A model generated the notes under the pieces. It saw only the letters and a program-made list of their open reading frames with translations, searched no databases and was not told where the DNA came from. Positions 1 to 32,019 of a DNA stretch of 64,000 bases are shown one piece after another. The position numbers were made by a program, and so were the translations under genes. Every line of letters starts with the position of its first letter. The first letter of the stretch is position 1. Location of the stretch: NCBI GenBank assembly GCA_000146465.1, contig CP001946.1, one strand, 5' to 3'.

Positions 1-2480
<2,480 letters not shown>

Positions 2481-2520
2481 TCCTCAAATCAAAAAAATTC
2501 CCCCCAATCTCTCAAATACT

Positions 2521-3811
2521 GATCCTGCTGCTGGTTCTCCAACAGCAGCCATGTTACGACTTATATCTTATCTAACACGAAGGACTCAGACCTTCCAATC
2601 TTCGTCCACTGCGTCATCTTAGATAGCGACGGGCGGTGTGTACAAAGGACAGGGACCCATTCAAAACAACTTGTTCAATCGTTATTACTAGGAATTCCAC
2701 GTTCAGAAGCCCATTACACAGCTTCATCCCTCACAGCAGGCTCCCTCGCCATCTATCGTAGTGCGCGTGCCGCCCGCTTCATCTCAGGGCATAACGGACC
2801 TGTTCTGTTCCATTCCTCCCTTGCCCCAAAGAGCACTGTCAAAGGGTCTCACATCTTACGCAACTTAATCCAAAGCTCACGCCATCCATTTCAAACGGCC
2901 ATGCACCACCGCCGCGCGCATCCCGTCCTCGTTCTCCTGCCCGCTTCAGAACCGGTAAGTTGCCCCGCGTTGAGTCAAATTAAGCCGCACACTCCACTCC
3001 TTGTGGTGTCCTTCCGTCAATCTCTTCAAGTTTCACTCTTGCGAGCATACTATCCCCAGAACCCACATACTCAAGATTTCTCATGCACAACACTATATAG
3101 TCCCGTCCAGTCGGCATCGTTTACTGCTAGAACTAAAACGGTATCTAATCGATTTCGATCCTCTAGCCTTCGTCCTTCATCGTCACATAAGTCCAAGAGC
3201 ACAGCCTTCGCTTCTGTCCGTCCAGTCAGGGTCTTCGTATTTCACCCCTCGCCCAACTATCCGGTGCCCCTCGTCCTCTGCCAAACCTCTTACATCCACA
3301 TCAGGACATAATCCCCCAAACAAAGACATACAAAAGACTACGGACTTTTTAACTGCAGCATTCACCATAGACACTATTGGAGCAGGTATTACCGCGGCTG
3401 CTGGCACCCGACTTGCCCTCCAATCAATCTCGACTCCTTTACACTCGAAAAAAACTCACTTCTCATAACCGCCTCCCCAAAGGATTAGGCAAGTTTCGCG
3501 CCTGCTGCCATCCTTGGACGTAGTAGCCATCTCTCAGGCTCCCTCTCCGGAATCAAACCCCGATCCCCCGTCTCCCGTCTCCGCCTAGTTAGGCCATTAC
3601 CCTAACTACCAGCTGATAGGCCTACAACTTACTTGGCTCGTGTCAAAAACACTCCTAGCCCCCTACCTGCAGTTTCCCGCAGTTACAGCTCTCCCGCCAA
3701 CCAAATCATCGTACTATCACTGAGCCGTCCGTCAATCCCCCACAAGGTTCATCAACATGCATGGCTTAGTCCCAGAGAATAGCATCCACGTCAGGCAGAA
3801 TCAACCTGGTG
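2521..3811 (-). rRNA. Small-subunit rRNA, about 1.29 kb, the reduced 16S-like microsporidian form.
   Basis: The reverse complement of 3790-3811 is CACCAGGTTGATTCTGCCTGAC, the microsporidian SSU 5' end. The 530-loop motif GGTGCCAGCAGCCGCGGTAATAC lies near 3385-3410. The 3' region motif GTACACACCGCCCGTCGCTATCT lies near 2620-2660. A GGATCA-type 3' end lies near 2521. ORFs 38..3468 in the track fall inside the rDNA and are not genes. Confidence 0.9.
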
Positions 3812-4023
3812 CTACCCCCCATCAAAAATCTCTCAGATCCCTCATCAACAAACCCCTGGCCACAGCCACATCAAATCCCAAAAAATCCTCCATCCCCACC
3901 GTCAAACACAAATCTCTCTCAGAGGAGACCAAAACTAATCCAAAACCACTCTCTTTTCTCCCCACATCCCAATCCCCCCCCTCGCTCCCCCTTCTCTCCA
4001 TAACCCCTCCCCCCACATCCCAA
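3812..4023 (-). promoter_or_regulatory. C-rich rDNA upstream spacer or 5' ETS, a candidate Pol I promoter region. It contains two copies of CCCACATCCCAATC.
   Basis: It lies immediately upstream (in rRNA sense) of the SSU 5' end. It is strongly C-rich on the plus strand, with direct repeats near 3961-3974 and 4012-4025. Its function is inferred from position only. Confidence 0.35.
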
Positions 4024-5604
4024 TCACAACATGGACCCCTGCCCCCCAAATCCGTGGTAGACTACATCATTACCCCCGTCCCTGAAGATCCCCACTTCTA
4101 CTATCCCTATCTCCTTCCCAGACTCTTTTGTTTCAAGCATTGCAAGAGCCACTTTCCTTTCTCTTTTCACTCCTCTTTCTTCGTAACTTCTTGTAAGATC
4201 GAAGAAGTCGTCTGCATCTTCATGTCTAAGCAGCCCCACAGCCTCCACTATGTCATGAAACTTCTTCTGCTCTTTGATTTCCTCAATGCTTCGTCCTCTC
4301 CACTTCTGTTCCGTTCCCTCGTCCAAGATGTTCTTTATAACTTCAGGTTCCTTCTTCCATTGGAAAACCCTCCCATGGATTTCGTAGTTCTTTTTCTTTG
4401 TTTTTTCTTCCTTTTTCCCCCCTACTGCTCCCTTTTCCGACTTTTTGTCTTCTATCTCTTCTTTCTTGTCCTTTGTAACAATCTTCCTCTTTCTACTATT
4501 CTCCACTACCTTTCCCTTCCCTTTTCCCTTACTTCTTCTCTTTTCTTCTTCCTCTTCTCTCATCAGCTCTTCTGCATTTTGGTTAGCTTCCTTTTCTTTC
4601 ATTTCTTTCTCATCTGTATTTCTTTTCTTTCTTTCTTCAACCTCAAGAACAATCCTATTTATTTCATTCTCATAATCATCTTTATATTCTAAGAATGCTT
4701 CCTTTACTAACTCTGCTGCAACCTCCCTTCCATGTTCTTTATTGGTATTTATCAAAAGATTATGATCCAAATAGCCTATTAATGAAAGTATATCACTTTT
4801 GTATTGATAATACGAGTTCTTTGGTTTAATTCTCAATTCCTTGGCATGTAACCTTCTCAGACCAAGCTTCAAAATAAAACTTTTTATATCTTCTTCTCTT
4901 TTCCAGAGATTCAAACACTCATCGCATACCATATTCATCCCCTTAACTATTTGGTCTTGTTCTTGGATGGTACGAATAACTTTCCCATGTATCTCGATCT
5001 CCTTTAATTTCTCTTTTCTCTTCTTATTTTCTTCTGAATCAGGGTCAGGCAAGGCCTCTATCTTCTTAATCTCTTCGGAAGCCTTGGACGTAAGGATTTC
5101 TCCAAGTTCATCAAGTGTTTTCTTGCATTCTTTGACTATTCTCTTTGTTAAATCTCTAAATGTCCCATTCTTCTCATAAGACAGATAAACCGAATCAAAA
5201 TACCCGGATTGGATTTTTGCCGTGGCGAATGCTTCTATTAAGCTTTTAATCCATTCATAATAAATCGAGGTATTCAAAACTCCCATACACTTCAATGCTA
5301 CTTTTGTAATCTCCCTCATAATCTTTTTGACATACTCTCGTTTTCCACTTTCTATCTCGTTGTACTTTGTCGTAGGGAATACTAAAAATGAGTCATTATG
5401 AATAACAAATGGATATAATATCATTTTCCGATAATTAAATATGTCAGGAGAGTTATAAAGTACTTTTTTTATCCTTCTTCTTATTTTCTCATCATTCATC
5501 TTCTTCTCAATTCCTATTTCTGTATTTGCTACTGCTCTTTCCGGGGATGCTCCCCACACAACATTCATCATTCCAAGTACTTCTACTCCACAGATCCAGA
5601 TCAT
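4024..5604 (-). CDS. Hypothetical Lys/Glu-rich protein of 526 aa. The charged low-complexity core is encoded by a ~300-bp CT-rich tract. It may be a chromatin- or nucleolus-associated protein.
   Basis: It is the long intact ORF. Its central region is EEEKRRSKGKGKGK / KKEEIEDKKSEKG-like. No diagnostic catalytic motif was recognised. The CCC motif sits directly upstream of the ATG. Confidence 0.5.
   Translation of the reverse strand: MIWICGVEVLGMMNVVWGASPERAVANTEIGIEKKMNDEKIRRRIKKVLYNSPDIFNYRKMILYPFVIHNDSFLVFPTTKYNEIESGKREYVKKIMREITKVALKCMGVLNTSIYYEWIKSLIEAFATAKIQSGYFDSVYLSYEKNGTFRDLTKRIVKECKKTLDELGEILTSKASEEIKKIEALPDPDSEENKKRKEKLKEIEIHGKVIRTIQEQDQIVKGMNMVCDECLNLWKREEDIKSFILKLGLRRLHAKELRIKPKNSYYQYKSDILSLIGYLDHNLLINTNKEHGREVAAELVKEAFLEYKDDYENEINRIVLEVEERKKRNTDEKEMKEKEANQNAEELMREEEEEKRRSKGKGKGKVVENSRKRKIVTKDKKEEIEDKKSEKGAVGGKKEEKTKKKNYEIHGRVFQWKKEPEVIKNILDEGTEQKWRGRSIEEIKEQKKFHDIVEAVGLLRHEDADDFFDLTRSYEERGVKRERKVALAMLETKESGKEIGIVEVGIFRDGGNDVVYHGFGGQGSML
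4380..4680. repeat. Low-complexity polypyrimidine (CT-rich, plus strand) tract lying inside the K/E-rich CDS.
   Basis: It consists of runs of ttcttt, ctttc and tcttc units. The plus-strand ORFs 3757..4692 and 4445..4675 are antisense artefacts of this tract. Confidence 0.6.
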
Positions 5605-6323
5605 CCAAAGGGGAGAACAAATCCAACTTATATTACTCTCCCTTTCTTGCCTTCATCAAGGATTCATTATTAATAAAAATATCGATTTTGATAAGTTCCT
5701 GACTTCATTCTTCTCCAAATCAAGAATATGCTTTGTCAGTTAGAAACAACTCAATTCTAACTATCTAACATCTTCAGAATGATAATAACAACAATAACAA
5801 ACTCTTTGTCTGAACCACTAAACAACTCTACTCAATCTCACATAAACCATACCTTTTTATTCCAATCATATTGTGGTAGGCCTTTCTGTCACATCTAGCT
5901 TCGTTAACACCTTCTTTGTGCTTTTAAGATCCACACAGAGAATTCAGAACTCCTTCCCCATTCTTTCCACTGACCATTGCATTCATCGAGGATACATAAA
6001 CGGATTTTCCTCACCTTCACTCTCCAAACAATTCCTAGACAAGGTCTCAAAGCCTTCCACAACAAATGGTACTTTTCCCTCCCCTGCATTCGTCAACTCA
6101 AAAGCTTTATATGTTTGTTGATTAAGATATTCATATAATAAGTAAGCTATCTATTTTCCATATCTCGATTTCATTCTTCTTTATTCTCCATGTCTTTATC
6201 CTCCCCTTTCCCTATATATCGAGATAACCTGGGAACAAAACATCTTCTACGGCATCTTTCTCCTTACCATCTACAATTTAAAAGCTGTGCAATTGTTTGT
6301 CTTCTCAGTTAACTTCCTATACA

Positions 6324-19792: not shown

Positions 19793-20770
19793 ATGAACAA
19801 GAAGAGTTTTTTGAGGATATTTATCATTACAATTCTTGCTTTGGGCATAACTCTTCTAGCCTTTTTCCTTCTTAGAGAAAAGCCTCTAGGATACCTCACT
19901 GAGGAAGACGTTCAATCACTTTCAAGTGAACTTCAATTTAGATTCAAAGATTCTGGGAAAAACGAGGATGGAAATGAGGTTACCGACGTTAAATTCTTTG
20001 TCTGCCTGAATAGCATCCTAAAGTTGTTTAATTCTGTAGAAATCAGTCTTATTAACACCTTCTTGTCCTATGGAGAAAAAAGTAGTAAAGGGGAGAAGAA
20101 AGAGGAGGAGGACTACAACCATAAAGGATTATATGTAAAGAGTGCATTACAAGAGGCTAGAAATATAATGTTCCTGTCCCCAACCTCGAAGGAGGCTATA
20201 GTCGAAATTTTGCAGAAGGAAAATGAAAAGAAGAAAGAGAGCGAGCTTTTAGATACTGTCAGAAAAGCATTTTCCGAGGTTCAATTATCACCGGAGGAAG
20301 ATGACGACTCTTCTAGGCAAAAGAAGGAGGAGCTCAATAAGGTGTTGGCCAACCTCTTTATTTGGTTCTGGTTGAAGGGAACCCCTCCAGCGGACAAAAG
20401 AATTAATACCTTCAAAGGGGCTTACGAAAGCAATCAAGATATTAAGAAATATCTTCTGGAATATCTAGACGAGGAAAACAAGGAGGTTGCAAACGCAACA
20501 ATATCCGTTAGTGGAGAAAACGAAGTAATACCCGTAATTGATCATATACTACTTTCTATATTCAATGCTTCAATATACATGGGTCTTGGAATAAGTCCAA
20601 CCGACATACCTGCAGCAACAGCTATTTTAGCAGCTGGAGGAATTCTAGAAAAGGAAGGTGAACAAATCAAAAAGGGGTTTTTCCAGGGACTTCAGGATTT
20701 CTTCTTTGGTTCACCAAAGCAGGAACAATCCCTCCAACAAAGCGAGAAACTAGAGAAAAATGATGGGTAA
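19793..20770 (+). CDS. Hypothetical signal-anchor or secreted protein, member 1 of a tandem paralog pair.
   Basis: It has an N-terminal hydrophobic helix (IFIITILALGITLLAFFLL). The motif RFKDSGKNEDGNEVTDVKFFVCLNSILKLF is shared with the downstream paralog, which has RGKFEDSGKVIEGTVFFSFLYKFLTTL. It is acidic and KE-rich with a C-terminal hydrophobic patch. Confidence 0.55.
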   Translation: MNKKSFLRIFIITILALGITLLAFFLLREKPLGYLTEEDVQSLSSELQFRFKDSGKNEDGNEVTDVKFFVCLNSILKLFNSVEISLINTFLSYGEKSSKGEKKEEEDYNHKGLYVKSALQEARNIMFLSPTSKEAIVEILQKENEKKKESELLDTVRKAFSEVQLSPEEDDDSSRQKKEELNKVLANLFIWFWLKGTPPADKRINTFKGAYESNQDIKKYLLEYLDEENKEVANATISVSGENEVIPVIDHILLSIFNASIYMGLGISPTDIPAATAILAAGGILEKEGEQIKKGFFQGLQDFFFGSPKQEQSLQQSEKLEKNDG

Positions 20771-21103: not shown

Positions 21104-21847
21104 ATGAAGTCAAAAAAACTGGGCTTTTTGACTCTTATTTCTCTTGTTGTGGTAGGATTTGTGACCTGGTATGTTCTGTATAATTTATACTATCTATTTA
21201 TGAGTGATGAAATTGCAAATTCAATCTTTGATAAGTCAAAACTCAGAGGTAAGTTCGAGGACAGCGGAAAGGTCATAGAGGGAACGGTTTTCTTCAGTTT
21301 CCTATACAAGTTCTTGACAACTCTTGACGAGAAAGTTATAGGCGATTCTTGCATTGAAGATGTTTACGACAAGAGTATCCTTTCTGGGAAAGAAGATTAT
21401 TTAAGGAATGGACTTGAGATGGTAACTAGGGCTCTTTTCAAAAATAGGAACGTTGAAAAGGACTTGAAAGAAATATTGGAATCAAGTATTTCCGATATTG
21501 TTGCTCCAATCAAAAGGCATGAAGTTCAGTATGCAGAGGAGGAGGGCAAGAATAATGGTGAAGAGGACCAAAAGTATAACGAAGATGTTACTTTAATGGT
21601 GTCTAAGGCCTTTGTCTATATTCTTCTCCGGGAAAGATTAGATCACTCCATGTACAAGAAATATCTTGATAAGGTAAAGGACGACTTCAATGAAAATACA
21701 AAGGATCACTTGAAGAAAATTGGAATTAGTGAAAGAATCTATATTTTTGAAGGGGAAAGCAACGTAGGCATGGAAATATACGATTATATTCGTGTTGTAA
21801 TGTTTGCAACTAGTAAGCTCATCCCGGATTCCTTAACTAAAAACTAA
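21104..21847 (+). CDS. Hypothetical signal-anchor or secreted protein, member 2 of the tandem paralog pair.
   Basis: It has an N-terminal TM or signal sequence (LGFLTLISLVVVGFVTWYVLY). It shares the FEDSGK...FF..L motif with 19793..20770. An upstream TATA-like ataaat and CCCC at -7 are present. Confidence 0.55.
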   Translation: MKSKKLGFLTLISLVVVGFVTWYVLYNLYYLFMSDEIANSIFDKSKLRGKFEDSGKVIEGTVFFSFLYKFLTTLDEKVIGDSCIEDVYDKSILSGKEDYLRNGLEMVTRALFKNRNVEKDLKEILESSISDIVAPIKRHEVQYAEEEGKNNGEEDQKYNEDVTLMVSKAFVYILLRERLDHSMYKKYLDKVKDDFNENTKDHLKKIGISERIYIFEGESNVGMEIYDYIRVVMFATSKLIPDSLTKN

Positions 21848-21870: not shown

Positions 21871-23151
21871 GTGATGTTTGATCATTTAATTAATGTTTAC
21901 TTCTCCCTTATTCTAAGAGAGATGTCAAAGGTACTAACAGAGCGTTCAGCAGCAATGACGATGGTAGCGTCTATGCTGGGTGCAAGCATATATTTCACAC
22001 CAATTGCATTTAGATTTGTTGGATACATTTACGGATGGATTATCATCTTTATAATTGCTTCGCTCACATCGTTTTCCCTGTACTGCATCTCATACTCTGC
22101 AATAAAGATCGGGAAAGGCCAGACATATTCGTCGCTGGGGGTTTATATATCTCCAAGACTTAAGCATGTCCTTGATGGGTTTGTCATTGTAAATAGCTTG
22201 TCTGCTAATGTCTGTCTTTACAGATATCTTTCCGAGCTGGTTGTGGCAGCCTTCCCCGAGCTGCTGCTTACTTCCTTTAGCTATGAAACTACCAGAAAAG
22301 GAATTGTGGCCGTTCTCTTAATTCCCTTTTTCGCTCTTTCCTCCCATAAAAACCTTTCCAGCCTCAGATACGTATCGCTTGCAATGGTTGTTTCCATTGG
22401 ATATTTTATCTTTCTTCTAATCTCCTACAATCTTTTTCTATATCCCAAGTATACCTCCTACGAGGAAACATCTTTCCCTCTCTCCAATGGATTTTCTTTT
22501 TCGATTCCCATTTTCATAACAGCAATGGCATGCCAATCGAATATGGTAAAGGTTCTGGACGAGATGGCAAGTGACTCCATGAGGAAGGTTAAGCTTGTGT
22601 CTGTGTGGAGTGGTGTCGGTGGAGGACTAATCTACGGACTGATAGGGCATCTTGGATATTCTCTCTTTGGAAACACACTCAATGGGGATTTGCTAAGGAT
22701 ACTTGCAGACAAGGGTTCTTCAATTAATATCCAATTAGCAAGTACTGTCGACAAGTATCTCATATCCTCAAGAGTAGCAGTGTATGGATGCATCTTGATA
22801 TTTATCGGAAGCTTTCCAATCCAATTGAATCCACTGATAACTACTTTATTCAACATTCTGCCCGAGGAGAGAAGAACAAACACTACCCGGATGTTTCTAA
22901 TGGCTGCCCTGATCATGCTTTGCTTTTTTCTAGTCCTGGTTGAGGATTTGTCTGCAGGACTTGTGATAAGCATAGGAGGTGCAACAGTAACAAACTTCAT
23001 ATCATTTCTCTTTCCATTTATTTTTTTCATATCAGTGAGAAAAAGATTCTCCCTCAGTACATTTCTGGCTCTAGTTTGCATTGCGGCTTGTGTTTCCAGC
23101 TCGGTCTACATGTTAGCTAATATAGTAACTGGAAGGAATAAGATCATGTAA
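21871..23151 (+). CDS. Amino acid permease (AAAP / Aa_trans-type), multi-pass membrane protein. It is paralog A.
   Basis: It has about 10-11 hydrophobic helices. The STVDKYLISSRVAVYGCILIF segment resembles STIDKYCITTKVMCILIPIV in the 27862..29139 paralog. The overall AAAP helix pattern is present. Confidence 0.65.
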   Translation: MMFDHLINVYFSLILREMSKVLTERSAAMTMVASMLGASIYFTPIAFRFVGYIYGWIIIFIIASLTSFSLYCISYSAIKIGKGQTYSSLGVYISPRLKHVLDGFVIVNSLSANVCLYRYLSELVVAAFPELLLTSFSYETTRKGIVAVLLIPFFALSSHKNLSSLRYVSLAMVVSIGYFIFLLISYNLFLYPKYTSYEETSFPLSNGFSFSIPIFITAMACQSNMVKVLDEMASDSMRKVKLVSVWSGVGGGLIYGLIGHLGYSLFGNTLNGDLLRILADKGSSINIQLASTVDKYLISSRVAVYGCILIFIGSFPIQLNPLITTLFNILPEERRTNTTRMFLMAALIMLCFFLVLVEDLSAGLVISIGGATVTNFISFLFPFIFFISVRKRFSLSTFLALVCIAACVSSSVYMLANIVTGRNKIM

Positions 23152-23213
23152 ATCCAATTTCTTAATAAATGAAATCAGATCTATTAGGAAATATATAATT
23201 ATAGACACTCTCT

Positions 23214-24692
23214 CTAGCTTCTAACAGCAGAAGGCTCTCTGACCAATATCTTTTTTGGTCTTCCAGGACCACGCTTAAGCAAGTTCCGATCCGACTGGCA
23301 CTTCACCGGTAGATCGGCCACTGGTATTATATCCTTGAGGTCCTGAAGTCTTGTCTTTGAATAAAGATCGCTAACATACAAGTATGGATCCTCTCCAGAA
23401 TCAAGTATTTTTTTGCAAGCATGTGGGCACGGAATTAGAAACTCCTGGAACTTCCCACACGTACATGTCTGATTCTGTAAATCAACATCGTAGAAAGTAT
23501 CCGCTGTTTCTACAGACGTGTTCTTCTCTATTCTTCGTATAACATTGTTTCCGAACAACCCCTTTCCTTTCCCTTCTCCAAAGCTAGCCTTTTTTCTTTG
23601 GCTCAGATTGTCACTGGAAAGTTTTAGAATCGCACAGACACAATCAAAAAACGGAAGATTGAAGATTCCCAGCCCAATAAACTCTGCATCACACTCACTT
23701 GTATTCTGCATCCCAAGCATCTCCGTTTCGCAGCAGCTCTTCAAGTAGTGTTTTCTTTCCATAAAGTTGAGCTCTGGTGTGCTCCATTCCTTGGAGGTGT
23801 TACATTTGTTCCAGATGTCTTCTACACCATCAATAGACTTATTTTTGTTGTAGTAAAACTTGCATATATCACGGGTTTTCACAAAAAAATCCCTCTCCTT
23901 TCTCCTGAGAATGTTTATAAGCTCGCAATCAAAGTCCACAAGGAAGAATAATTTAGGCATTGAATCAATAAAATACTCAAATGTGCTTTCTCGACTTCCC
24001 GTGTCCGACACCGCGCAGGAGTAAACAATAGGTGACCATGTAGGATCTCGGAGAACTCCCAGCATCGCAAATCCCTCCGTTCTCTTGTATATTCTTATCT
24101 CCACTATTGGAACAAGTACATCAAGATATTCGGGAAAAGAGAAAAAAAACATCTTTTTCTTCTGATGAGCAACTGCACAAGGATTAAGCTCCAAGAACTC
24201 TTGGGAAAACTCCTTGAGTGCCCGGCCAAACAGCTCATCCTTTCCTCCCTCTTCTCCGCAGATCATCTCCATATTCTCCTTTTCTGTCTTATCATTTTGT
24301 CTCATGGCCTTCCATACAGAAAAGTATCCCATCTTTATGTTCATGTCCGCCAAAACAGATAGAATCTCCCCTATTCTTGCATATCTATCTCCTATAGCTT
24401 TCTGAACCTCCATTCGAACCATTTCATCCGGCGATCCGTATTTGGATGTTACTACCGGGCATTTATGGGACAGTCTAATCCTTTTAACTACAAACACCCC
24501 ATCCTTCTTCCTCAACTGTGCAACAATTCTGGCATCACATCCAAATTCCTCTCTTCCCTTACACAGCACAGAAATCGATTTGGGCGTCTCCTCAAGATCA
24601 TAGTTGAGATTGTTTCGCACTGCGTGATCTATTAAAGCCTTCTCAGCCTCTTCTCTTGTGGAAAGTATGTCATTAACGGACAGCCCTTTCAT
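23214..24692 (-). CDS. MULE (Mutator-like) transposase-derived protein with a FAR1-type N-terminal DNA-binding domain, a MULE core and a C-terminal SWIM zinc finger.
   Basis: The N-terminal block is FAR1/WRKY-like (…KSISVLCKGREEFGCDARIVAQLRKKDGVFVVKRIRLSHKC). The MULE core fits the family pattern (CAVSDTGSRESTFEYFIDSM… FFLVDFDCELINIL… ICKFYYNKN). The SWIM motif is CTCGKFQEFLIPCPHACK. No terminal inverted repeats were seen by eye, and the first catalytic Asp region looks degenerate. Confidence 0.7.
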   Translation of the reverse strand: MKGLSVNDILSTREEAEKALIDHAVRNNLNYDLEETPKSISVLCKGREEFGCDARIVAQLRKKDGVFVVKRIRLSHKCPVVTSKYGSPDEMVRMEVQKAIGDRYARIGEILSVLADMNIKMGYFSVWKAMRQNDKTEKENMEMICGEEGGKDELFGRALKEFSQEFLELNPCAVAHQKKKMFFFSFPEYLDVLVPIVEIRIYKRTEGFAMLGVLRDPTWSPIVYSCAVSDTGSRESTFEYFIDSMPKLFFLVDFDCELINILRRKERDFFVKTRDICKFYYNKNKSIDGVEDIWNKCNTSKEWSTPELNFMERKHYLKSCCETEMLGMQNTSECDAEFIGLGIFNLPFFDCVCAILKLSSDNLSQRKKASFGEGKGKGLFGNNVIRRIEKNTSVETADTFYDVDLQNQTCTCGKFQEFLIPCPHACKKILDSGEDPYLYVSDLYSKTRLQDLKDIIPVADLPVKCQSDRNLLKRGPGRPKKILVREPSAVRS

Positions 24693-25128
24693 TAAGGGGT
24701 TTGTTATTCAACAGCTTTTATTCTTTACAACAGACAGATGGGCTATAGCTTTGTTTCTCAGCCTCCCAGAAACACCAACAATAATGCCATTAGGACTTCC
24801 TAAAGACGCTCATACTTATTTTTGTCCCTATCCTTCCCCTTTGAGCAGTATATGCAGCATATTTTACTCTTCTTCTTTCCTAATCCCTCATTGTCAACAG
24901 TTTCCTTTGTCCAAGTCACACGCCTTGTTTTTATCAGCTTTAGCTTCATCTTGGTTACTGTCACTGTGCTTGACATATCCTAGGGTTTGTTTTCTATAGA
25001 ATATAAATGGATCAAAGCTACCCATAACCATCCTTCTTATTACACATTGTCTAGCCGTAAGTGCACTAATGTGTTGTAGCTATACCATTCCAGTCCATTT
25101 CTTTATTAAACAAAAAATTACCCACGAA

Positions 25129-27861: not shown

Positions 27862-29139
27862 TTAATTCTTCTGTAGAATGTCTATCAGCGTCCTTATGGT
27901 CCCCACCAAGGCTGCACTTGTAAATATCATTGCGAGGATGCAGACGGCTGTAAAGAACTTAATCTTCTTAGATGCAAAGATATAGCATATGAACGGGTGA
28001 TATACTAGCAGAGGAGTCATTCCAATCACAAAAAGCACCACATAGAAATGGAAAGGCCCGATGATCTCGTTGAAAAGGACCTGGATGAACACTATGCTTA
28101 GCACAAGGAGAGATAATAGCCACAACCTGGTGTCTCCTTCTGCATTCACCAAGTTTTTAAAAGACTCAACAAAAGAATCAAATTGTATCACAAATAACGA
28201 AATGCATACTATTGGAATAAGAATGCACATCACTTTGGTTGTGATACAATACTTATCAATTGTAGATGTCCTCAGGTAGGTGTTCAACTTTGATGACCTA
28301 AGGAACATAAGATTCAGAATGTCCAACGAGTTGTAGCTAGATCTTATCCACCTTGCCAAGTGTAATAGAACTAAATACATTCCAGAGACAGACAATGAGC
28401 TCGTAATAGCAACGTATTTGGCACTTTCCCTATGCATGGATTCCCCTATGATTTTGACTCCTCCAGATATGAACTCCGCCGTATAAAATGCTATGGTGGT
28501 TACCCAAAAGAACGACGGTAGGAGGCTTCCTTGAGAATATGATGGCTTTGGAAGTGCCGAGTTTATTCCTAGGAAGTACCCTGCGATTATGGCAACTATA
28601 AAAAGGATACTGGCCGATGCAGAGATAATAAGAAATATCTTCCTACTGAAGGTGGAAAAGACATATAGAGTCAGCCCCACCAGTGCCAATCCTAACCCAA
28701 ATAATATCTTGTATATAGCCATCGACTTTCTGATTTCGTCCAGGAAGGGAAAGTAGATAAACAGTACGTTGAAAAAGACGTCCACTGTGATAAGAAGTGT
28801 TGTGTATTTCAAAACAGCAGAAAACACATCAACAGTTTTCGACAAGGGCCCGCAAAATCCCCTCGAAATATCTCCCAAGGACTTCAACTTCTCTTCGCTT
28901 CTCTTTTTCCCTATGTACTCCACTATGTATAGAGATAGTCCCATAAGTATTCCAGATGCAATTATTCCGTAGGTATAGTATTCTGTTTTTACTCCTTTTG
29001 TAAAGTATGTCAAGGACAAGAACACGGGAATTATAGGTGAGGTCCCAATTATCTTGTAAGACTGCCCAAGTGTAGAGCAAAGACGATTTCTTGGTTCTTC
29101 CATGTGTTTATTCGGCGAAAACAATAATAAGAAAAACAT
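27862..29139 (-). CDS. Amino acid permease (AAAP-type), multi-pass membrane protein. It is paralog B, in inverted orientation relative to paralog A.
   Basis: It has about 11 hydrophobic helices and shares segments with 21871..23151. The true start may be the internal Met (MEEPRNRL, about 29103). Confidence 0.65.
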   Translation of the reverse strand: MFFLLLFSPNKHMEEPRNRLCSTLGQSYKIIGTSPIIPVFLSLTYFTKGVKTEYYTYGIIASGILMGLSLYIVEYIGKKRSEEKLKSLGDISRGFCGPLSKTVDVFSAVLKYTTLLITVDVFFNVLFIYFPFLDEIRKSMAIYKILFGLGLALVGLTLYVFSTFSRKIFLIISASASILFIVAIIAGYFLGINSALPKPSYSQGSLLPSFFWVTTIAFYTAEFISGGVKIIGESMHRESAKYVAITSSLSVSGMYLVLLHLARWIRSSYNSLDILNLMFLRSSKLNTYLRTSTIDKYCITTKVMCILIPIVCISLFVIQFDSFVESFKNLVNAEGDTRLWLLSLLVLSIVFIQVLFNEIIGPFHFYVVLFVIGMTPLLVYHPFICYIFASKKIKFFTAVCILAMIFTSAALVGTIRTLIDILQKN

Positions 29140-29241: not shown

Positions 29242-31584
29242 TCATCTTTCAAAGATGGTAAATCCAAGAAGGGTAGAGTAAATCCCATCGATGGAATCCG
29301 AGTACTTCTCTGTAACCTTGTAGACCTTATCCAAGACTTCACTGCTCATTTTCCATCCTCTTCTAAGGCTCTCCTCTATAAGCCATTGTATGACAACACA
29401 GTTCTTGAATGTCCCTTGTTTTAGAATAAGGTCAAAGAACATTTTATGCTTGTCTTCAAAAATAGTGAAAATTTCGTTGGATCTTTCTCTATGGCACCTC
29501 ACTATCATTCTAAATAATTGTTTGTAATCGTCTGTCCTAGAGAGTATTTCAACAGCTTTGACATTAAGATTATTTCGAAGGCATCTTTCCAGCTCGATGG
29601 TTTGCATTTCCTTTTCATTCTTCTTTGCAATGGTCCTGTTTAACACTTCCTGAGAGTCGTCTTGAAAAAAAGCTATTAGTCCGTTTCCAGATGTTATGAG
29701 AAGGGATCCACTGATAAAGGCCCATACCCGGTCTCTGTGAACATCAATGTTCATTTCACATGTTCTCTTTTTAACATTCCAAACTTTCATTTCCCCAGTA
29801 GCACATCCGGAAATAAACCTTTCGTCATTTCTGTAGAACTGCCCCTTCAGAACAGCGCTTCTGTGTGCTGTAAGCACCCCAACACACTCAAAAGTCTCTA
29901 TATCCCAAATCCTTACTGTGGTATCTGCAGAACATGTTGCCATCAGATTTTTGCCAAAACTCACACTCCATACACCCTTTGTGTGCCCCGAAAGCACCTG
30001 AAGGATTCTTCCTTCAAAGTTAAAAACCTTTGCCTTCTTATCTTGGGAACATGTTGCAATGAGTCTTCTTTCCTCGTTGATTTCAACACTGTTAATCTCC
30101 TTGTCATGGATTCTTTCCATGAACACATTATCTTTGTAGTCCCATATCTGCAGAATCTGATCGCTTCCAACAAGTACAAAAATAGAAGCTCCAAGAACAC
30201 ATCCGTTGAGTCCTCCAAGACCATTCTCAAGTGTCTTAATTCTCTTCAAAACCACACTTTTCTCTTCTCTGTTTTCTGTATCTTTCAAAACAATCTTCCA
30301 AAGAATGGCTTTCTTGTCTCTTGAGGTTGTCATCAAGAAGTTTCCATTGATTGAGAGTGACATAATGGCTTCCGAATGTGCTGGAACAATATCTCCATTG
30401 AATGCATAGCTTCCTTCTCCCCCATCTACAAATGTGTATCTCAACCTTCCACTATTTGTGGCAACAAACAGTACGTCATTCCACTTCTTCATGTCCGTTA
30501 TCTCATCATTATTCCCAATAATAACAGAAGTAACCCTCAAACTTTCGTCAACAAGAAATATTTCCTGCTCGCTTGTTACTATAACCCCCTGAGACATCCC
30601 TTCAACAATCACCTCATCGTCCACTTTGATTTCTTCTTCCACCACAGTATTTCTCATATCAGAAACATGTTTTCTTTTCTTGTATCCGTCATCTGTTCCA
30701 CTTTCGTCTTCGTAGCAATCGTCACTGTTCTCTCCGTAAATCTCACACCGTTCTTTTCCATTTGGAAACCCATTCTCTTCACTCTCGTCTTCAAAACTTC
30801 CATCTTCTTTCCTAAACCGAAGCATACTCTGCGATGATCCTTCTCTTTCCGCGAGAATGTCCCTTTTATATTGAATCTTTCCATCATAGTCATATACATG
30901 GACTATTAAGCCTTTCCATATATACAAAAACTGCCCATCTCCTACCATAAAGTCACACTTTGTGTCCAATGCCACCTTCTTAGACTTTTCCAAGATCTTT
31001 AAAACCCCTTCTCGCGTGACTGCACAAACATGGCGTCCATTATATCCTATTCCCACTACCTCCGGCTCATGATACTTCAAAAGCTCTTCTCCTCCTTTAT
31101 AAATCCACACCTCATTAGCATCTGCAGAACACACCATATTTCCAAACCTTTCTAGCTTTCTTATCATGCTGTCCATTCTATAAGACCATAAAGGTGCCTT
31201 GCTAACCAGATCTATCTTGGAAACGGATCCGTCAACCCTTCCGACCACAACAGAAAAGGCACTAAATCCTTCATCAGAAACCACTAGCTCATCCACAACC
31301 ATACTGCACACCTCTATTTTTGAAAACTGAACAACATCTTCTACAACTCCCTTTGCAAGATTATAGATAACTATCCCTTTCGAACATGCAACTATGTATC
31401 CATCCCTTACATCAAAGCACTTGAGGGAATCAAACGGTATTTCTCTAAGAATTTGGAATGTCTTAACATCAGTCTCCACTATTAGATCATTGAATTGTGT
31501 ATACAATATGTCTCCTTGTCTCTTTGGAACTCCTGTTGTTAGTATTGGCTTCATCTGTTTCTTCAAATTAAAATGCACCTTCAT
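29242..31584 (-). CDS. WD40-repeat protein with a Utp13-type C-terminal domain (TBL3/Utp13-like SSU-processome component). It carries an acidic insert.
   Basis: WD repeats are present (GHTKGVWSVSF, CSADTTVRIWD, GCATGEMKVWN). The C-terminal helical region ELERCLRNNLNVKAVEILSRTDDYKQLFRMI resembles the Utp13 domain. The Asp/Glu-rich insert is EDESEENGF…DDCYEDESGTDDG. Confidence 0.55.
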   Translation of the reverse strand: MKVHFNLKKQMKPILTTGVPKRQGDILYTQFNDLIVETDVKTFQILREIPFDSLKCFDVRDGYIVACSKGIVIYNLAKGVVEDVVQFSKIEVCSMVVDELVVSDEGFSAFSVVVGRVDGSVSKIDLVSKAPLWSYRMDSMIRKLERFGNMVCSADANEVWIYKGGEELLKYHEPEVVGIGYNGRHVCAVTREGVLKILEKSKKVALDTKCDFMVGDGQFLYIWKGLIVHVYDYDGKIQYKRDILAEREGSSQSMLRFRKEDGSFEDESEENGFPNGKERCEIYGENSDDCYEDESGTDDGYKKRKHVSDMRNTVVEEEIKVDDEVIVEGMSQGVIVTSEQEIFLVDESLRVTSVIIGNNDEITDMKKWNDVLFVATNSGRLRYTFVDGGEGSYAFNGDIVPAHSEAIMSLSINGNFLMTTSRDKKAILWKIVLKDTENREEKSVVLKRIKTLENGLGGLNGCVLGASIFVLVGSDQILQIWDYKDNVFMERIHDKEINSVEINEERRLIATCSQDKKAKVFNFEGRILQVLSGHTKGVWSVSFGKNLMATCSADTTVRIWDIETFECVGVLTAHRSAVLKGQFYRNDERFISGCATGEMKVWNVKKRTCEMNIDVHRDRVWAFISGSLLITSGNGLIAFFQDDSQEVLNRTIAKKNEKEMQTIELERCLRNNLNVKAVEILSRTDDYKQLFRMIVRCHRERSNEIFTIFEDKHKMFFDLILKQGTFKNCVVIQWLIEESLRRGWKMSSEVLDKVYKVTEKYSDSIDGIYSTLLGFTIFER

Positions 31585-31656
31585 ATGCTTCTTCAGTGGG
31601 CTAGAAAATATTTCTGAAATTCAACCGCGAACTACCTCATTGTTGAAAGCCCTTTC

Positions 31657-32019
31657 CTAACCTTCTTTCATGCACCGGATGAATCTAAACCGATCAAATA
31701 GGAGGAAGATGGCATTGTTATATTTGTAGAAAATATTGCTTTCTGCGCTTTGAATGTCTTCTAGGACATAGATCAGATCATGTCCTTTGAAAGCCTCGTA
31801 TATTTCCTCCCTACACTTGGAAACATCGTACACAACAAAAACTTCTTTTTTCACACCAACGAACAGCTTGTGCACCAGCGGAATCTTTCCACAAAAGTCA
31901 AAAACAGCTATAGTCACACCCATCCTCTTTATATCCTCCATTTGCATTCTAATCTCCTTTAATTTCAAAATTTCAACAACTCTTTCGACATAGTATTCAT
32001 ATATGTCCACCGGTTTCAT
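31657..32019 (-). CDS. Hypothetical small protein of 120 aa.
   Basis: It is an intact ORF with CCC at -2..-4. No motif was recognised. Confidence 0.4.
   Translation of the reverse strand: MKPVDIYEYYVERVVEILKLKEIRMQMEDIKRMGVTIAVFDFCGKIPLVHKLFVGVKKEVFVVYDVSKCREEIYEAFKGHDLIYVLEDIQSAESNIFYKYNNAIFLLFDRFRFIRCMKEG

What the first reader, a model, noticed from the sequence alone, without database searches (positions are those of the whole stretch)
23214..24692. Intact Mutator-like (MULE) transposase gene with FAR1-type DNA-binding domain and SWIM finger in a microsporidian
A 492-aa uninterrupted ORF carries the three hallmarks of Mutator-superfamily transposases. They are an N-terminal FAR1/WRKY-type DNA-binding block, the MULE core (…CAVSDTGSRESTFEYFIDSM… FFLVDFDCELINIL… ICKFYYNKN) and a C-terminal SWIM zinc finger (CTCGKFQEFLIPCPHACK). 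It sits antisense between two amino-acid-permease paralogs that are themselves inverted relative to each other. I saw no obvious terminal inverted repeats, the 3' flank is only 62 bp, and the first catalytic-Asp region looks degenerate. It is therefore either a fossil or domesticated transposase (a FAR1/FHY3-like host gene) or a recent insertion, possibly acquired horizontally. Either outcome is interesting for a reduced microsporidian genome.
Basis: partly seen in the sequence, partly recalled or inferred. Interest (0 to 1): 0.68.

Follow-up and report, generated by a model that had tools for sequence, protein, structure and literature searches.

The report
Domesticated Mutator transposase gene in microsporidia
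This gene descends from a Mutator-type jumping-gene enzyme, but microsporidian parasites have kept it as an ordinary single-copy gene; it has lost most residues needed to cut DNA and most likely now works as a DNA-binding regulator.

Summary
The 492-aa ORF at 23214-24692(-) is real. It is Eint_050150 on Encephalitozoon intestinalis chromosome V. Pfam finds only the SWIM finger directly. A family profile aligns end to end with true MuDR-type MULE transposases (hhalign 99.9%, E 8e-35, 466 columns): a WRKY-GCM1 'HxC' DNA-binding domain, an RNase H-like core, a SWIM finger and a C-terminal GRPKK tail. It is not a mobile element, a recent insertion or a fossil. It is single-copy, has no TIRs or TSDs, and has flanks of only 62 and 107 bp. 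Gene order is conserved in E. cuniculi and Ordospora and partly in Vairimorpha. Orthologs occur in Astathelohania, Trachipleistophora, Spraguea, Binucleata and Edhazardia. Purifying selection is as strong as on the neighbouring WD40 gene (dN 0.137; pN 0.13 vs pS 0.70). Across about 56 family members the first catalytic Asp is Lys/Arg, the CxxH motif and the conserved Trp are gone, and all eight zinc ligands are kept. Best reading: an old, independent domestication comparable to plant FHY3/FAR1 and MUSTANG, now a non-catalytic DNA-binding protein. A rewired acidic site (E198/D253/D350) leaves residual nuclease activity possible.

The parts
23214..24692 (-). Complete CDS (492 aa plus stop) of Eint_050150, a MULE-transposase-derived host gene
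   Evidence: ORF. 100% match to the E. intestinalis protein. Profile-profile match to true MULE transposases at 99.9% probability, E 8e-35, over 466 columns. AF2 model pLDDT 82.6, pTM 0.75.
24453..24680 (-). N-terminal WRKY-GCM1 'HxC'-family zinc DNA-binding domain (about aa 5-80; ligands C44, C52, H76, C78), MuDR type (PF03108), not FAR1 type
24183..24452 (-). Helical linker region (about aa 81-170) with a disordered acidic loop at aa 135-149
   Evidence: Helices and the low-pLDDT segment 135-149. Aligned to the equivalent MULE region.
23589..24173 (-). RNase H-like transposase core (about aa 174-368) with a degenerate catalytic signature. MULE D1 maps to R200 (nt 24093-24095), D2 to D253, C of CxxH to K272, H to D275, W to T331 and E to D350. 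E198 is a derived invariant residue.
23415..23492 (-). SWIM zinc finger (aa 401-426; C410-x-C412...C422-x-H424)
   Evidence: Pfam PF04434 at 21.8 bits, above the 19.6 cutoff. Hit in 17 of 17 members. Ligands essentially invariant.
23250..23276 (-). C-terminal AT-hook-like basic motif KRGPGRPKK (aa 473-481), inherited from MuDR-type transposases
   Evidence: Invariant or nearly invariant in A1. The same 'PGRPKK' appears in the consensus of true MULEs. It is missing or unaligned in one subset of the family. Babu et al. note AT-hooks in HxC-family transposases.
23152..23213 (.). 3' intergenic spacer (62 bp) to the convergent Aa_trans gene; no TIR
24693..24799 (.). 5' intergenic spacer (107 bp) to the stop codon of the Ypi1-like gene; presumed promoter region; no TIR
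   Evidence: The same arrangement holds in E. cuniculi and Ordospora.

Best explanation
Eint_050150 is a host gene that arose by domestication of a MuDR-type Mutator-like (MULE) transposase. The domestication happened early in microsporidian evolution, and the gene has been inherited vertically since then as a single-copy, immobile locus. Three nucleic-acid-binding parts of the ancestral transposase are kept under strong purifying selection: the WRKY-GCM1 'HxC' zinc domain, the SWIM finger and an AT-hook-like GRPKK tail. The RNase H-like core is kept as a fold, but it has lost the first catalytic Asp (now Lys/Arg), the (C/D)xxH motif and the conserved Trp. The most likely mechanism is a non-catalytic, sequence-specific DNA-binding protein, that is, a transcription or chromatin regulator. 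The WRKY domain would read a specific site, the AT-hook would anchor in an adjacent AT-rich minor groove, and the core plus SWIM would act as a structural or oligomerisation scaffold. This parallels plant FHY3/FAR1 and MUSTANG. Shown here: homology, architecture, immobility, age, selection and residue replacements. Inferred: loss of catalysis and the regulatory role.
Against: No DNA-binding, target-site or phenotype data exist for any family member, and no paper in the searchable library mentions the locus tags. Three acidic positions stay conserved as Asp or Glu across the family: E198 (55/56), D253 (55/58) and D350 (54/56). K272 and R274 are also conserved. Such conservation inside the former active site goes beyond what a pure scaffold needs. 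The D1 assignment depends on the alignment: single-sequence hmmalign places it at V197 or E198 rather than R200, so E198 could be a displaced first carboxylate. The expression evidence is weak because nearly every E. cuniculi gene is transcribed. I could not inspect model coordinates, so the active-site geometry is untested. The GRPKK tail is absent or unaligned in one subset of the family, so it may not be essential.
Confidence: 0.68

Rival explanations
1. The gene is domesticated but still catalytic. It would be a host nuclease or recombinase with a rewired acidic site (E198, D253/D255, D350) that makes programmed DNA breaks. Precedents known to me are Kluyveromyces lactis alpha3 (a domesticated MULE used in mating-type switching), RAG1 and ciliate PiggyMac.
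For: Three acidic positions at or beside the ancestral active site are conserved as Asp or Glu in at least 95% of about 56 members, and E198 is a derived invariant residue two positions before the lost Asp on the same face of strand beta1. D253 and D350 occupy the canonical structural positions, after beta4 and on the long helix. The whole core, not only the DNA-binding modules, is under purifying selection. One alignment method puts D1 next to E198.
Against: The profile-profile alignment, anchored by the conserved Pro and the in/out pattern of the strand, puts Lys/Arg at D1. The CxxH motif and the Trp are absent from all members, and W401A alone abolishes Muta1 activity. Asp and Glu interchange freely at positions 253 and 350, which is unusual for metal-ligating residues of DDE enzymes. 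A conserved Lys/Arg in the pocket fits a salt bridge that replaces the metal ions. That last point is my inference.
Confidence: 0.15
2. The gene is domesticated for a role that is not DNA-targeted. For example, it could be a SWIM-mediated protein-interaction adaptor, as in some animal ZSWIM proteins, with the DNA-binding modules vestigial.
For: SWIM is the most strongly conserved and the only directly detectable domain. The GRPKK tail is missing in part of the family.
Against: The four WRKY-domain zinc ligands are as invariant as the SWIM ligands, and the N-terminal domain is well folded in the model. Vestigial modules would not stay invariant across lineages that are only 16-30% identical overall.
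Confidence: 0.1
3. The gene is an active or recently inserted MULE transposon, possibly acquired horizontally from a host.
For: The ORF is uninterrupted and has transposase architecture. Mobile MULEs do exist in large-genome microsporidia such as Nosema ceranae (PMC2685015). Non-TIR MULEs are known (PMC6446971).
Against: The gene sits at an orthologous, syntenic position in E. cuniculi and Ordospora and partly in Vairimorpha. It is single-copy. There are no TIRs or TSDs in any of four species examined. The flanks of 62 and 107 bp leave no room for MULE ends. The catalytic signature is lost family-wide. Identity falls with taxonomic distance: 80% and 78% within Encephalitozoon, 57% to Ordospora, and 36-37% to Vairimorpha and Astathelohania.
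Confidence: 0.02
4. The gene is a decaying fossil of a transposase with no function.
For: The catalytic residues are degenerate, and all databases call it hypothetical.
Against: Full-length intact ORFs persist in at least eight genera. pN is 0.126 against pS 0.698. Zinc ligands are invariant. The replacement residues themselves (K200, K272) are conserved. Retention in genomes of about 2,000 genes argues for function; that last point is my inference.
Confidence: 0.01

Closest known systems
MuDR-clade Mutator-like (MULE) transposases (MURA-like; Pfam DBD_Tnp_Mut PF03108 + MULE PF10551 + SWIM PF04434)
   Same: The domain order is the same over the whole length: an HxC WRKY-GCM1 DBD with its extra N-terminal helix, an RNase H-like core with an all-helical insertion, a SWIM finger and a C-terminal PGRPKK motif. 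D2 and E are still acidic, and the D2-to-E spacing is about the same (97 vs 99 residues).
   Different: There are no TIRs or TSDs. The gene is single-copy and syntenic. D1 is Lys/Arg, CxxH has become K..(S/D), and the Trp is lost. The protein is shorter (about 490 vs 600-900 aa) and lacks the C-terminal CCHC knuckle seen in the plant elements. It falls below Pfam MULE detection. Identity to true MULEs is only 10-21%.
Arabidopsis FHY3/FAR1 (MULE-derived transcription factors)
   Same: Both are domesticated MULE transposases that keep an N-terminal WRKY-GCM1 zinc domain, the transposase core and a C-terminal SWIM finger, and are used as host proteins rather than for transposition (PMC6446971; PMC1702500).
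   Different: The DBD subfamily differs: FAR1 has PF03101, the 'insert-containing' WRKY-GCM1 family, while this protein has the HxC family (PF03108). The domestication is independent, in a different kingdom. Function is demonstrated for FHY3/FAR1 and unknown here.
Plant MUSTANG (MUG) genes
   Same: These are MuDR-like transposase-derived host genes conserved across a large clade (PMC6446971). From my own knowledge, they share the PF03108 + MULE + SWIM layout and the lack of TIRs.
   Different: They are an angiosperm-specific, multi-gene family. The microsporidian family is a separate clade and appears to be one gene per genome in Encephalitozoon.
Fungal Aft1/Aft2/Rcs1 and Rbf1 transcription factors
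   Different: Those factors kept only the DBD and lost the transposase core and SWIM. They belong to the insert-containing family, not the HxC family.
IS256-family bacterial transposases (e.g. ISCth4, PDB 6XG8)
   Different: They are prokaryotic, catalytically active, and have no WRKY or SWIM domains. No similarity is detectable by sequence.

Membership tests
Mutator-like (MULE) transposase superfamily (homology) | Sequence or profile homology to the MULE transposase core and its accessory domains | tested here: met
   hhalign of family A1 against 10 true MULEs: 99.9% probability, E 8e-35, 466 columns. The family profile retrieves PF10551-positive proteins at E 8.5e-16 to 1e-9 in a library of 1.8 billion proteins.
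Mutator-like (MULE) transposase superfamily (homology) | Direct match to Pfam MULE (PF10551) or Transposase_mut (PF00872) | tested here: not met
   No hit for the window protein or any of 17 family members at E<=10.
Functional MULE transposase / autonomous MULE element | Intact DDE catalytic triad | tested here: not met
   D1 aligns to R200, which is K or R in 54 of 56 members. D2 aligns to D253 (D or E) and E to D350 (D or E). Caveat: D1 placement depends on the alignment, and invariant E198 lies two residues upstream.
Functional MULE transposase / autonomous MULE element | (C/D)(2)H motif 15-45 aa after the second D, and a conserved W upstream of the E (PMC5499845) | tested here: not met
   C has become K272 (55 of 57 members). 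H has become S, D or A and is never H. W has become T, L, F or M and is never W. In 30 true MULEs C is present in 28, H in 25 and W in 23.
Functional MULE transposase / autonomous MULE element | Terminal inverted repeats (typically >100 bp) and 8-10 bp target-site duplications | tested here: not met
   Only chance-level inverted matches (at most 27 nt, 70-76%) were found, and none brackets the gene. The flanks are 62 and 107 bp. None was found around the orthologs in V. bombi, T. hominis or A. contejeani.
Functional MULE transposase / autonomous MULE element | Multiple copies or positional polymorphism (mobility) | tested here: not met
   One copy in the window. One protein per Encephalitozoon species. 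Orthologous syntenic position in three genera. Whole-genome copy counts could not be made directly.
Domesticated (exapted) transposase gene | Transposase-derived ORF without transposon ends, at an orthologous position across species | tested here: met
Domesticated (exapted) transposase gene | Purifying selection over long evolutionary time | tested here: met
   pN 0.126 vs pS 0.698. dN 0.137 equals that of the neighbouring WD40 gene; dS is saturated, so omega of about 0.07 is approximate. Intact orthologs in at least eight genera.
Domesticated (exapted) transposase gene | Expression and a demonstrated host function | tested here: inconclusive
   The ortholog ECU05_0180 is transcribed (FPKM 105/77/91), but almost all E. 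cuniculi genes are. No functional data were found. Function is not testable with these tools.
FAR1/FHY3 family | FAR1 DNA-binding domain (PF03101; the 'insert-containing' WRKY-GCM1 family) | tested here: not met
   No PF03101 hit in 17 members. The short C-x7-C spacer and HxC ligands define the other (HxC) family.
WRKY-GCM1 'HxC' family / DBD_Tnp_Mut (PF03108) | [quoted passage not shown] | tested here: met
SWIM zinc finger (PF04434) | CxCxnCxH signature scoring above Pfam's gathering threshold | tested here: met
   21.8 bits against the 19.6 cutoff. Hit in 17 of 17 members. C410, C412, C422 and H424 are invariant.

The most novel reading that the evidence does not exclude
The protein is not an inert DNA binder. 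It would be a domesticated recombinase or nuclease whose active site has been rebuilt around a shifted carboxylate (E198) together with D253/D255 and D350, and microsporidia would use it for a programmed DNA transaction. Possible examples are subtelomeric or rDNA recombination, ploidy or sexual-cycle events, or genome maintenance in lineages that have lost much of the usual repair machinery.
Probability: 0.12. Interest if true: 0.8.

Novelty: new member of a known kind. Interest (0 to 1): 0.45.

Why it matters
Encephalitozoon genomes are among the smallest eukaryotic nuclear genomes. They are described as almost free of transposons (PMC5751038) and, to my knowledge, encode few recognisable transcription factors. 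A transposase-derived DNA-binding protein kept as a single syntenic gene across deeply separated microsporidian lineages is therefore a good candidate for a lineage-specific regulator, and so for a parasite-specific target or marker. It would also be an independent instance of MULE-to-host-gene domestication outside plants and Dikarya fungi. It further shows that 'hypothetical, SWIM-domain' annotations in these genomes can be resolved by profile-profile methods. Domestication of MULEs as regulators is an established theme, and the WRKY-type domain in the E. cuniculi ortholog was already noted in 2006. This is a solid annotation advance rather than a new kind of system.

Tried and rejected
- Direct Pfam scan for MULE and FAR1: no hit. 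The MULE relationship needed a family profile.
- Sequence search of PDB with the single protein and with the family profile: nothing.
- Single-sequence hmmalign to a 30-sequence MULE HMM: unstable in the core, with D1 landing on V197 or E198 and inconsistent gaps. I relied on the profile-profile alignment instead and flagged the ambiguity.
- TIR and TSD searches around the gene and three orthologs: only chance-level or AT-rich low-complexity matches.
- The second word-indexed homolog search with the profile added no new named taxa.
- Literature search on locus tags: no paper.
- dN/dS beyond Encephalitozoon: dS was saturated and undefined against Ordospora.
- The first tree script timed out, and the Kimura correction produced NaN values. 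I repeated it with a cap.
- Paralogy of the two fast-evolving upstream genes: not supported (E 0.03 over the N-terminal 53 aa only).
- Horizontal transfer from a host: rejected because the family is one clade found across several deep microsporidian lineages, with identity falling with taxonomic distance. The nearest named true MULEs are from plants, which I attribute to database abundance rather than ancestry.
Full report
**1. What is in the sequence**

The window is Encephalitozoon intestinalis ATCC 50506 chromosome V. It begins in the subtelomeric rDNA unit (LSU rRNA 27-2407 and SSU rRNA 2517-3811, minus strand). It is 100% identical to the annotated protein Eint_050150, which NCBI calls 'uncharacterized protein' and UniProt calls 'SWIM-type domain-containing'.

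The 3' neighbour is a convergent Aa_trans permease gene that ends 62 bp away (21871-23151, Pfam E 1.2e-23). It is a 58-aa Ypi1-like gene at 24800-24976 (minus strand), 107 bp upstream (PF07491 in the E. cuniculi and Ordospora orthologs). The 'second permease' (27862-29139, minus strand) is three genes further away. It has no Pfam hit and is 28% identical over 207 aa to the first. The statement that the gene lies 'between two inverted permease paralogs' is therefore only loosely true.

**2. Testing the three claimed hallmarks**

Pfam finds only the SWIM finger directly (21.8 bits against a 19.6 cutoff, residues 401-426). Neither MULE PF10551 nor FAR1 PF03101 hits. Scanning 17 family members one by one gives SWIM in all 17, DBD_Tnp_Mut (PF03108, the MuDR-transposase DNA-binding domain) in 6 (best E 2.2e-4), and still no MULE or FAR1.

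The relationship becomes clear with profiles. A family HMM searched against 1.84 billion representative proteins finds 2,124 hits. All ten full-length non-family hits I tested have the DBD_Tnp_Mut + MULE + SWIM architecture, with PF10551 at E 4.7e-8 to 6e-21. hhalign of the family against those ten MULEs gives 99.9% probability, E 8e-35, over 466 aligned columns. The alignment runs from the first strand of the DNA-binding domain to a shared C-terminal 'PGRPKK' motif.

The AF2 model is confident (pLDDT 82.6, pTM 0.75) and shows:
- A helix plus four strands at the N-terminus, which is the WRKY-GCM1 fold with the extra N-terminal helix that Babu et al. describe for MULE-associated families.
- The canonical RNase H order beta1-beta2-beta3-alpha1-beta4-alpha-beta5-alpha, followed by a helical insertion.

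No solved structure is detectable by sequence.

The protein is therefore MULE-derived. Its DBD is the 'HxC' (MuDR) type, with C44-x7-C52...H76-x-C78, and not the FAR1 type. Babu et al. 2006 (PMC1702500) had already listed an E. cuniculi protein in that HxC family.

**3. Not a mobile element, not recent, not a fossil**

- **No transposon ends.** No TIR or TSD candidate exceeds chance around the gene. None was found around the orthologs in V. bombi, T. hominis or A. contejeani, where the intergenic space is larger.
- **Single copy.** The window holds one copy and no fragments. Each Encephalitozoon species contributes one protein.
- **Synteny.** The order WD40 - Ypi1 - gene - (Aa_trans) - two hypothetical genes is the same in E. 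cuniculi (ECU05_0180). It is the same in Ordospora pajunii apart from the missing permease gene. In Vairimorpha bombi the ortholog still sits beside an Aa_trans gene, with the WD40 gene about 3 kb away.
- **Breadth.** Named orthologs also occur in Astathelohania contejeani, Trachipleistophora hominis, Spraguea lophii, Binucleata daphniae and Edhazardia aedis. The Edhazardia protein is swollen by low-complexity inserts but keeps the diagnostic motifs.
- **Vertical pattern.** Identity to the window protein falls with taxonomic distance: 80% and 78% within Encephalitozoon, 57% to Ordospora, and 36-37% to Vairimorpha and Astathelohania.
- **One clade.** The family separates from the sampled true MULEs in 100 of 100 NJ bootstraps. 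This is a crude method with limited outgroup sampling.
- **Selection.** Against E. cuniculi, pN is 0.126 and pS 0.698. dN (0.137) equals that of the neighbouring WD40 gene and is lower than that of the permease gene (0.171). dS is saturated, so omega of about 0.07 is approximate.
- **Expression.** The E. cuniculi ortholog is transcribed at FPKM 105/77/91 at 24/48/72 h (PMC3629993 Additional file 1). This is weak evidence, because nearly all genes in that organism are transcribed.

**4. The catalytic site**

The defining catalytic residues of MULE transposases are the DDE triad, a (C/D)(2)H motif 15-45 aa after the second D, and a Trp upstream of the Glu (PMC5499845). The counts below come from 30 true MULEs in my set and about 56 family representatives, using the hhalign mapping.

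| MULE position | Window residue | 30 true MULEs | Microsporidian family |
|---|---|---|---|
| D1 | R200 | D in 28 | K or R in 54 of 56 |
| D2 | D253 | D in 25 | D or E in 55 of 58 |
| C of CxxH | K272 | C in 28 | K in 55 of 57 |
| H of CxxH | D275 | H in 25 | S, D or A; never H |
| W | T331 | W in 23 | T, L, F or M; never W |
| E | D350 | E in 25 | D or E in 54 of 56 |

All four WRKY zinc ligands and all four SWIM zinc ligands are essentially invariant. The replacement residues are themselves conserved. That points to a single ancient change followed by selection for a new function.

In Muta1, the D214A, D283A, E419A and W401A mutants all lose cleavage and joining but still bind DNA specifically. 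This is the state the microsporidian proteins resemble.

Two cautions apply. First, the D1 assignment depends on the alignment. Single-sequence hmmalign places it at V197 or E198. The profile-profile alignment, the conserved Pro anchor and the side-chain alternation along strand beta1 favour R200. Second, E198 is a derived residue that is almost invariant, lies on the same face of the strand, and co-occurs with conserved acidic residues at 253 and 350. A rewired active site therefore cannot be excluded. I could not examine model coordinates.

**5. Most likely mechanism and its rivals**

| Explanation | Confidence |
|---|---|
| Non-catalytic, sequence-specific DNA-binding protein (regulator) | about 0.68 |
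| Domesticated but still catalytic nuclease or recombinase | about 0.15 |
| Protein-interaction adaptor, not DNA-targeted | about 0.10 |
| Active or recently inserted transposon, possibly horizontal | about 0.02 |
| Decaying fossil | about 0.01 |

The 0.68 applies to the whole best explanation. The domestication itself I rate above 0.9.

In the best-supported model, the WRKY-HxC domain reads a specific site and the GRPKK AT-hook-like tail contacts an AT-rich minor groove nearby. The dead RNase H core plus SWIM would serve as a scaffold or oligomerisation module. This is the FHY3/FAR1 and MUSTANG pattern (PMC6446971), arrived at independently.

Shown by the data: ancestry, architecture, immobility, age, selection and residue replacements. 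Inferred: loss of catalysis and a regulatory role.

The last two rivals are effectively refuted by synteny and by selection, respectively.

**6. Comparison with what is known, and novelty**

The closest relatives are MuDR-clade MULE transposases, which share the architecture but not the catalytic signature, the transposon ends or the mobility. The closest functional analogues are plant FHY3/FAR1 (a different DBD subfamily) and MUSTANG, and fungal Aft1/Aft2/Rbf1 (DBD only).

Mobile MULEs are known in large-genome microsporidia (PMC2685015). Encephalitozoon is reported to have fewer than ten transposon candidates per genome (PMC5751038). The WRKY-type domain of the E. cuniculi ortholog was noted in 2006. 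I found no paper describing this gene as a conserved, syntenic, catalytically degenerate domesticated MULE found widely across microsporidia.

I rate it a new member of a known kind, with interest 0.45. It is a useful and fairly clean re-annotation, and a good candidate regulator in extremely reduced genomes, but it is not a new type of system. The most novel reading still open is a rewired, active domesticated recombinase, with probability about 0.12.

Noticed in passing
window 27-2407 (-) and 2517-3811 (-): A complete LSU rRNA and a microsporidian SSU rRNA gene (Rfam 1414 and 1115 bits). The window therefore starts in the subtelomeric rDNA unit, which explains the GC content of 0.50 in the first 4 kb against about 0.39 elsewhere. 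The MULE-derived gene lies about 19 kb inside it.
   Followed up: partly
window 4001-6000: Just inside the rDNA there is a strongly skewed stretch (GC skew -0.43, AT skew -0.23, GC 0.37). Its cause was not examined.
   Followed up: no
window 24800-24976 (-): A 58-aa ORF that is 90% identical to an E. cuniculi gene carrying PF07491 (Ypi1, a protein phosphatase 1 inhibitor). It is also conserved in Ordospora.
   Followed up: partly
window 21871-23151 (+) compared with L002 (Ordospora pajunii): The Aa_trans permease gene lies next to the MULE-derived gene in E. intestinalis, E. cuniculi and V. bombi. It is absent from the syntenic position in Ordospora pajunii.
   Followed up: no
window 27862-29139 (-): A 425-aa multi-pass membrane protein with no Pfam hit. 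It is 28% identical over 207 aa to the Aa_trans protein (pairwise E 5e-7) and 83% identical to its E. cuniculi ortholog. It is probably a very divergent transporter paralog.
   Followed up: partly
window 19793-20770 (+) and 21104-21847 (+): Two hypothetical proteins with N-terminal hydrophobic anchors and no Pfam hits. They evolve much faster than their neighbours: 44% and 62% identity to E. cuniculi, and about 26% to Ordospora. Paralogy between them is not supported; only the N-terminal 53 aa match weakly, at E 0.03.
   Followed up: partly
L003 6001-7647 (Vairimorpha bombi): The ortholog's gene model spans 1,647 nt for a 499-aa product, and the locus does not translate straight to the protein. 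This could be an annotated intron or a gene-model problem; either would be unusual for this otherwise intron-less family.
   Followed up: no
P0065 (Edhazardia aedis EDEG_01660, 1,990 aa): The Edhazardia family member is about four times longer because of large low-complexity inserts between the conserved blocks. It still keeps the 'EIK' and 'KTRD' motifs and the SWIM finger.
   Followed up: partly
window 30001-32000: A second stretch with strong negative GC skew (-0.37). It was not examined.
   Followed up: no
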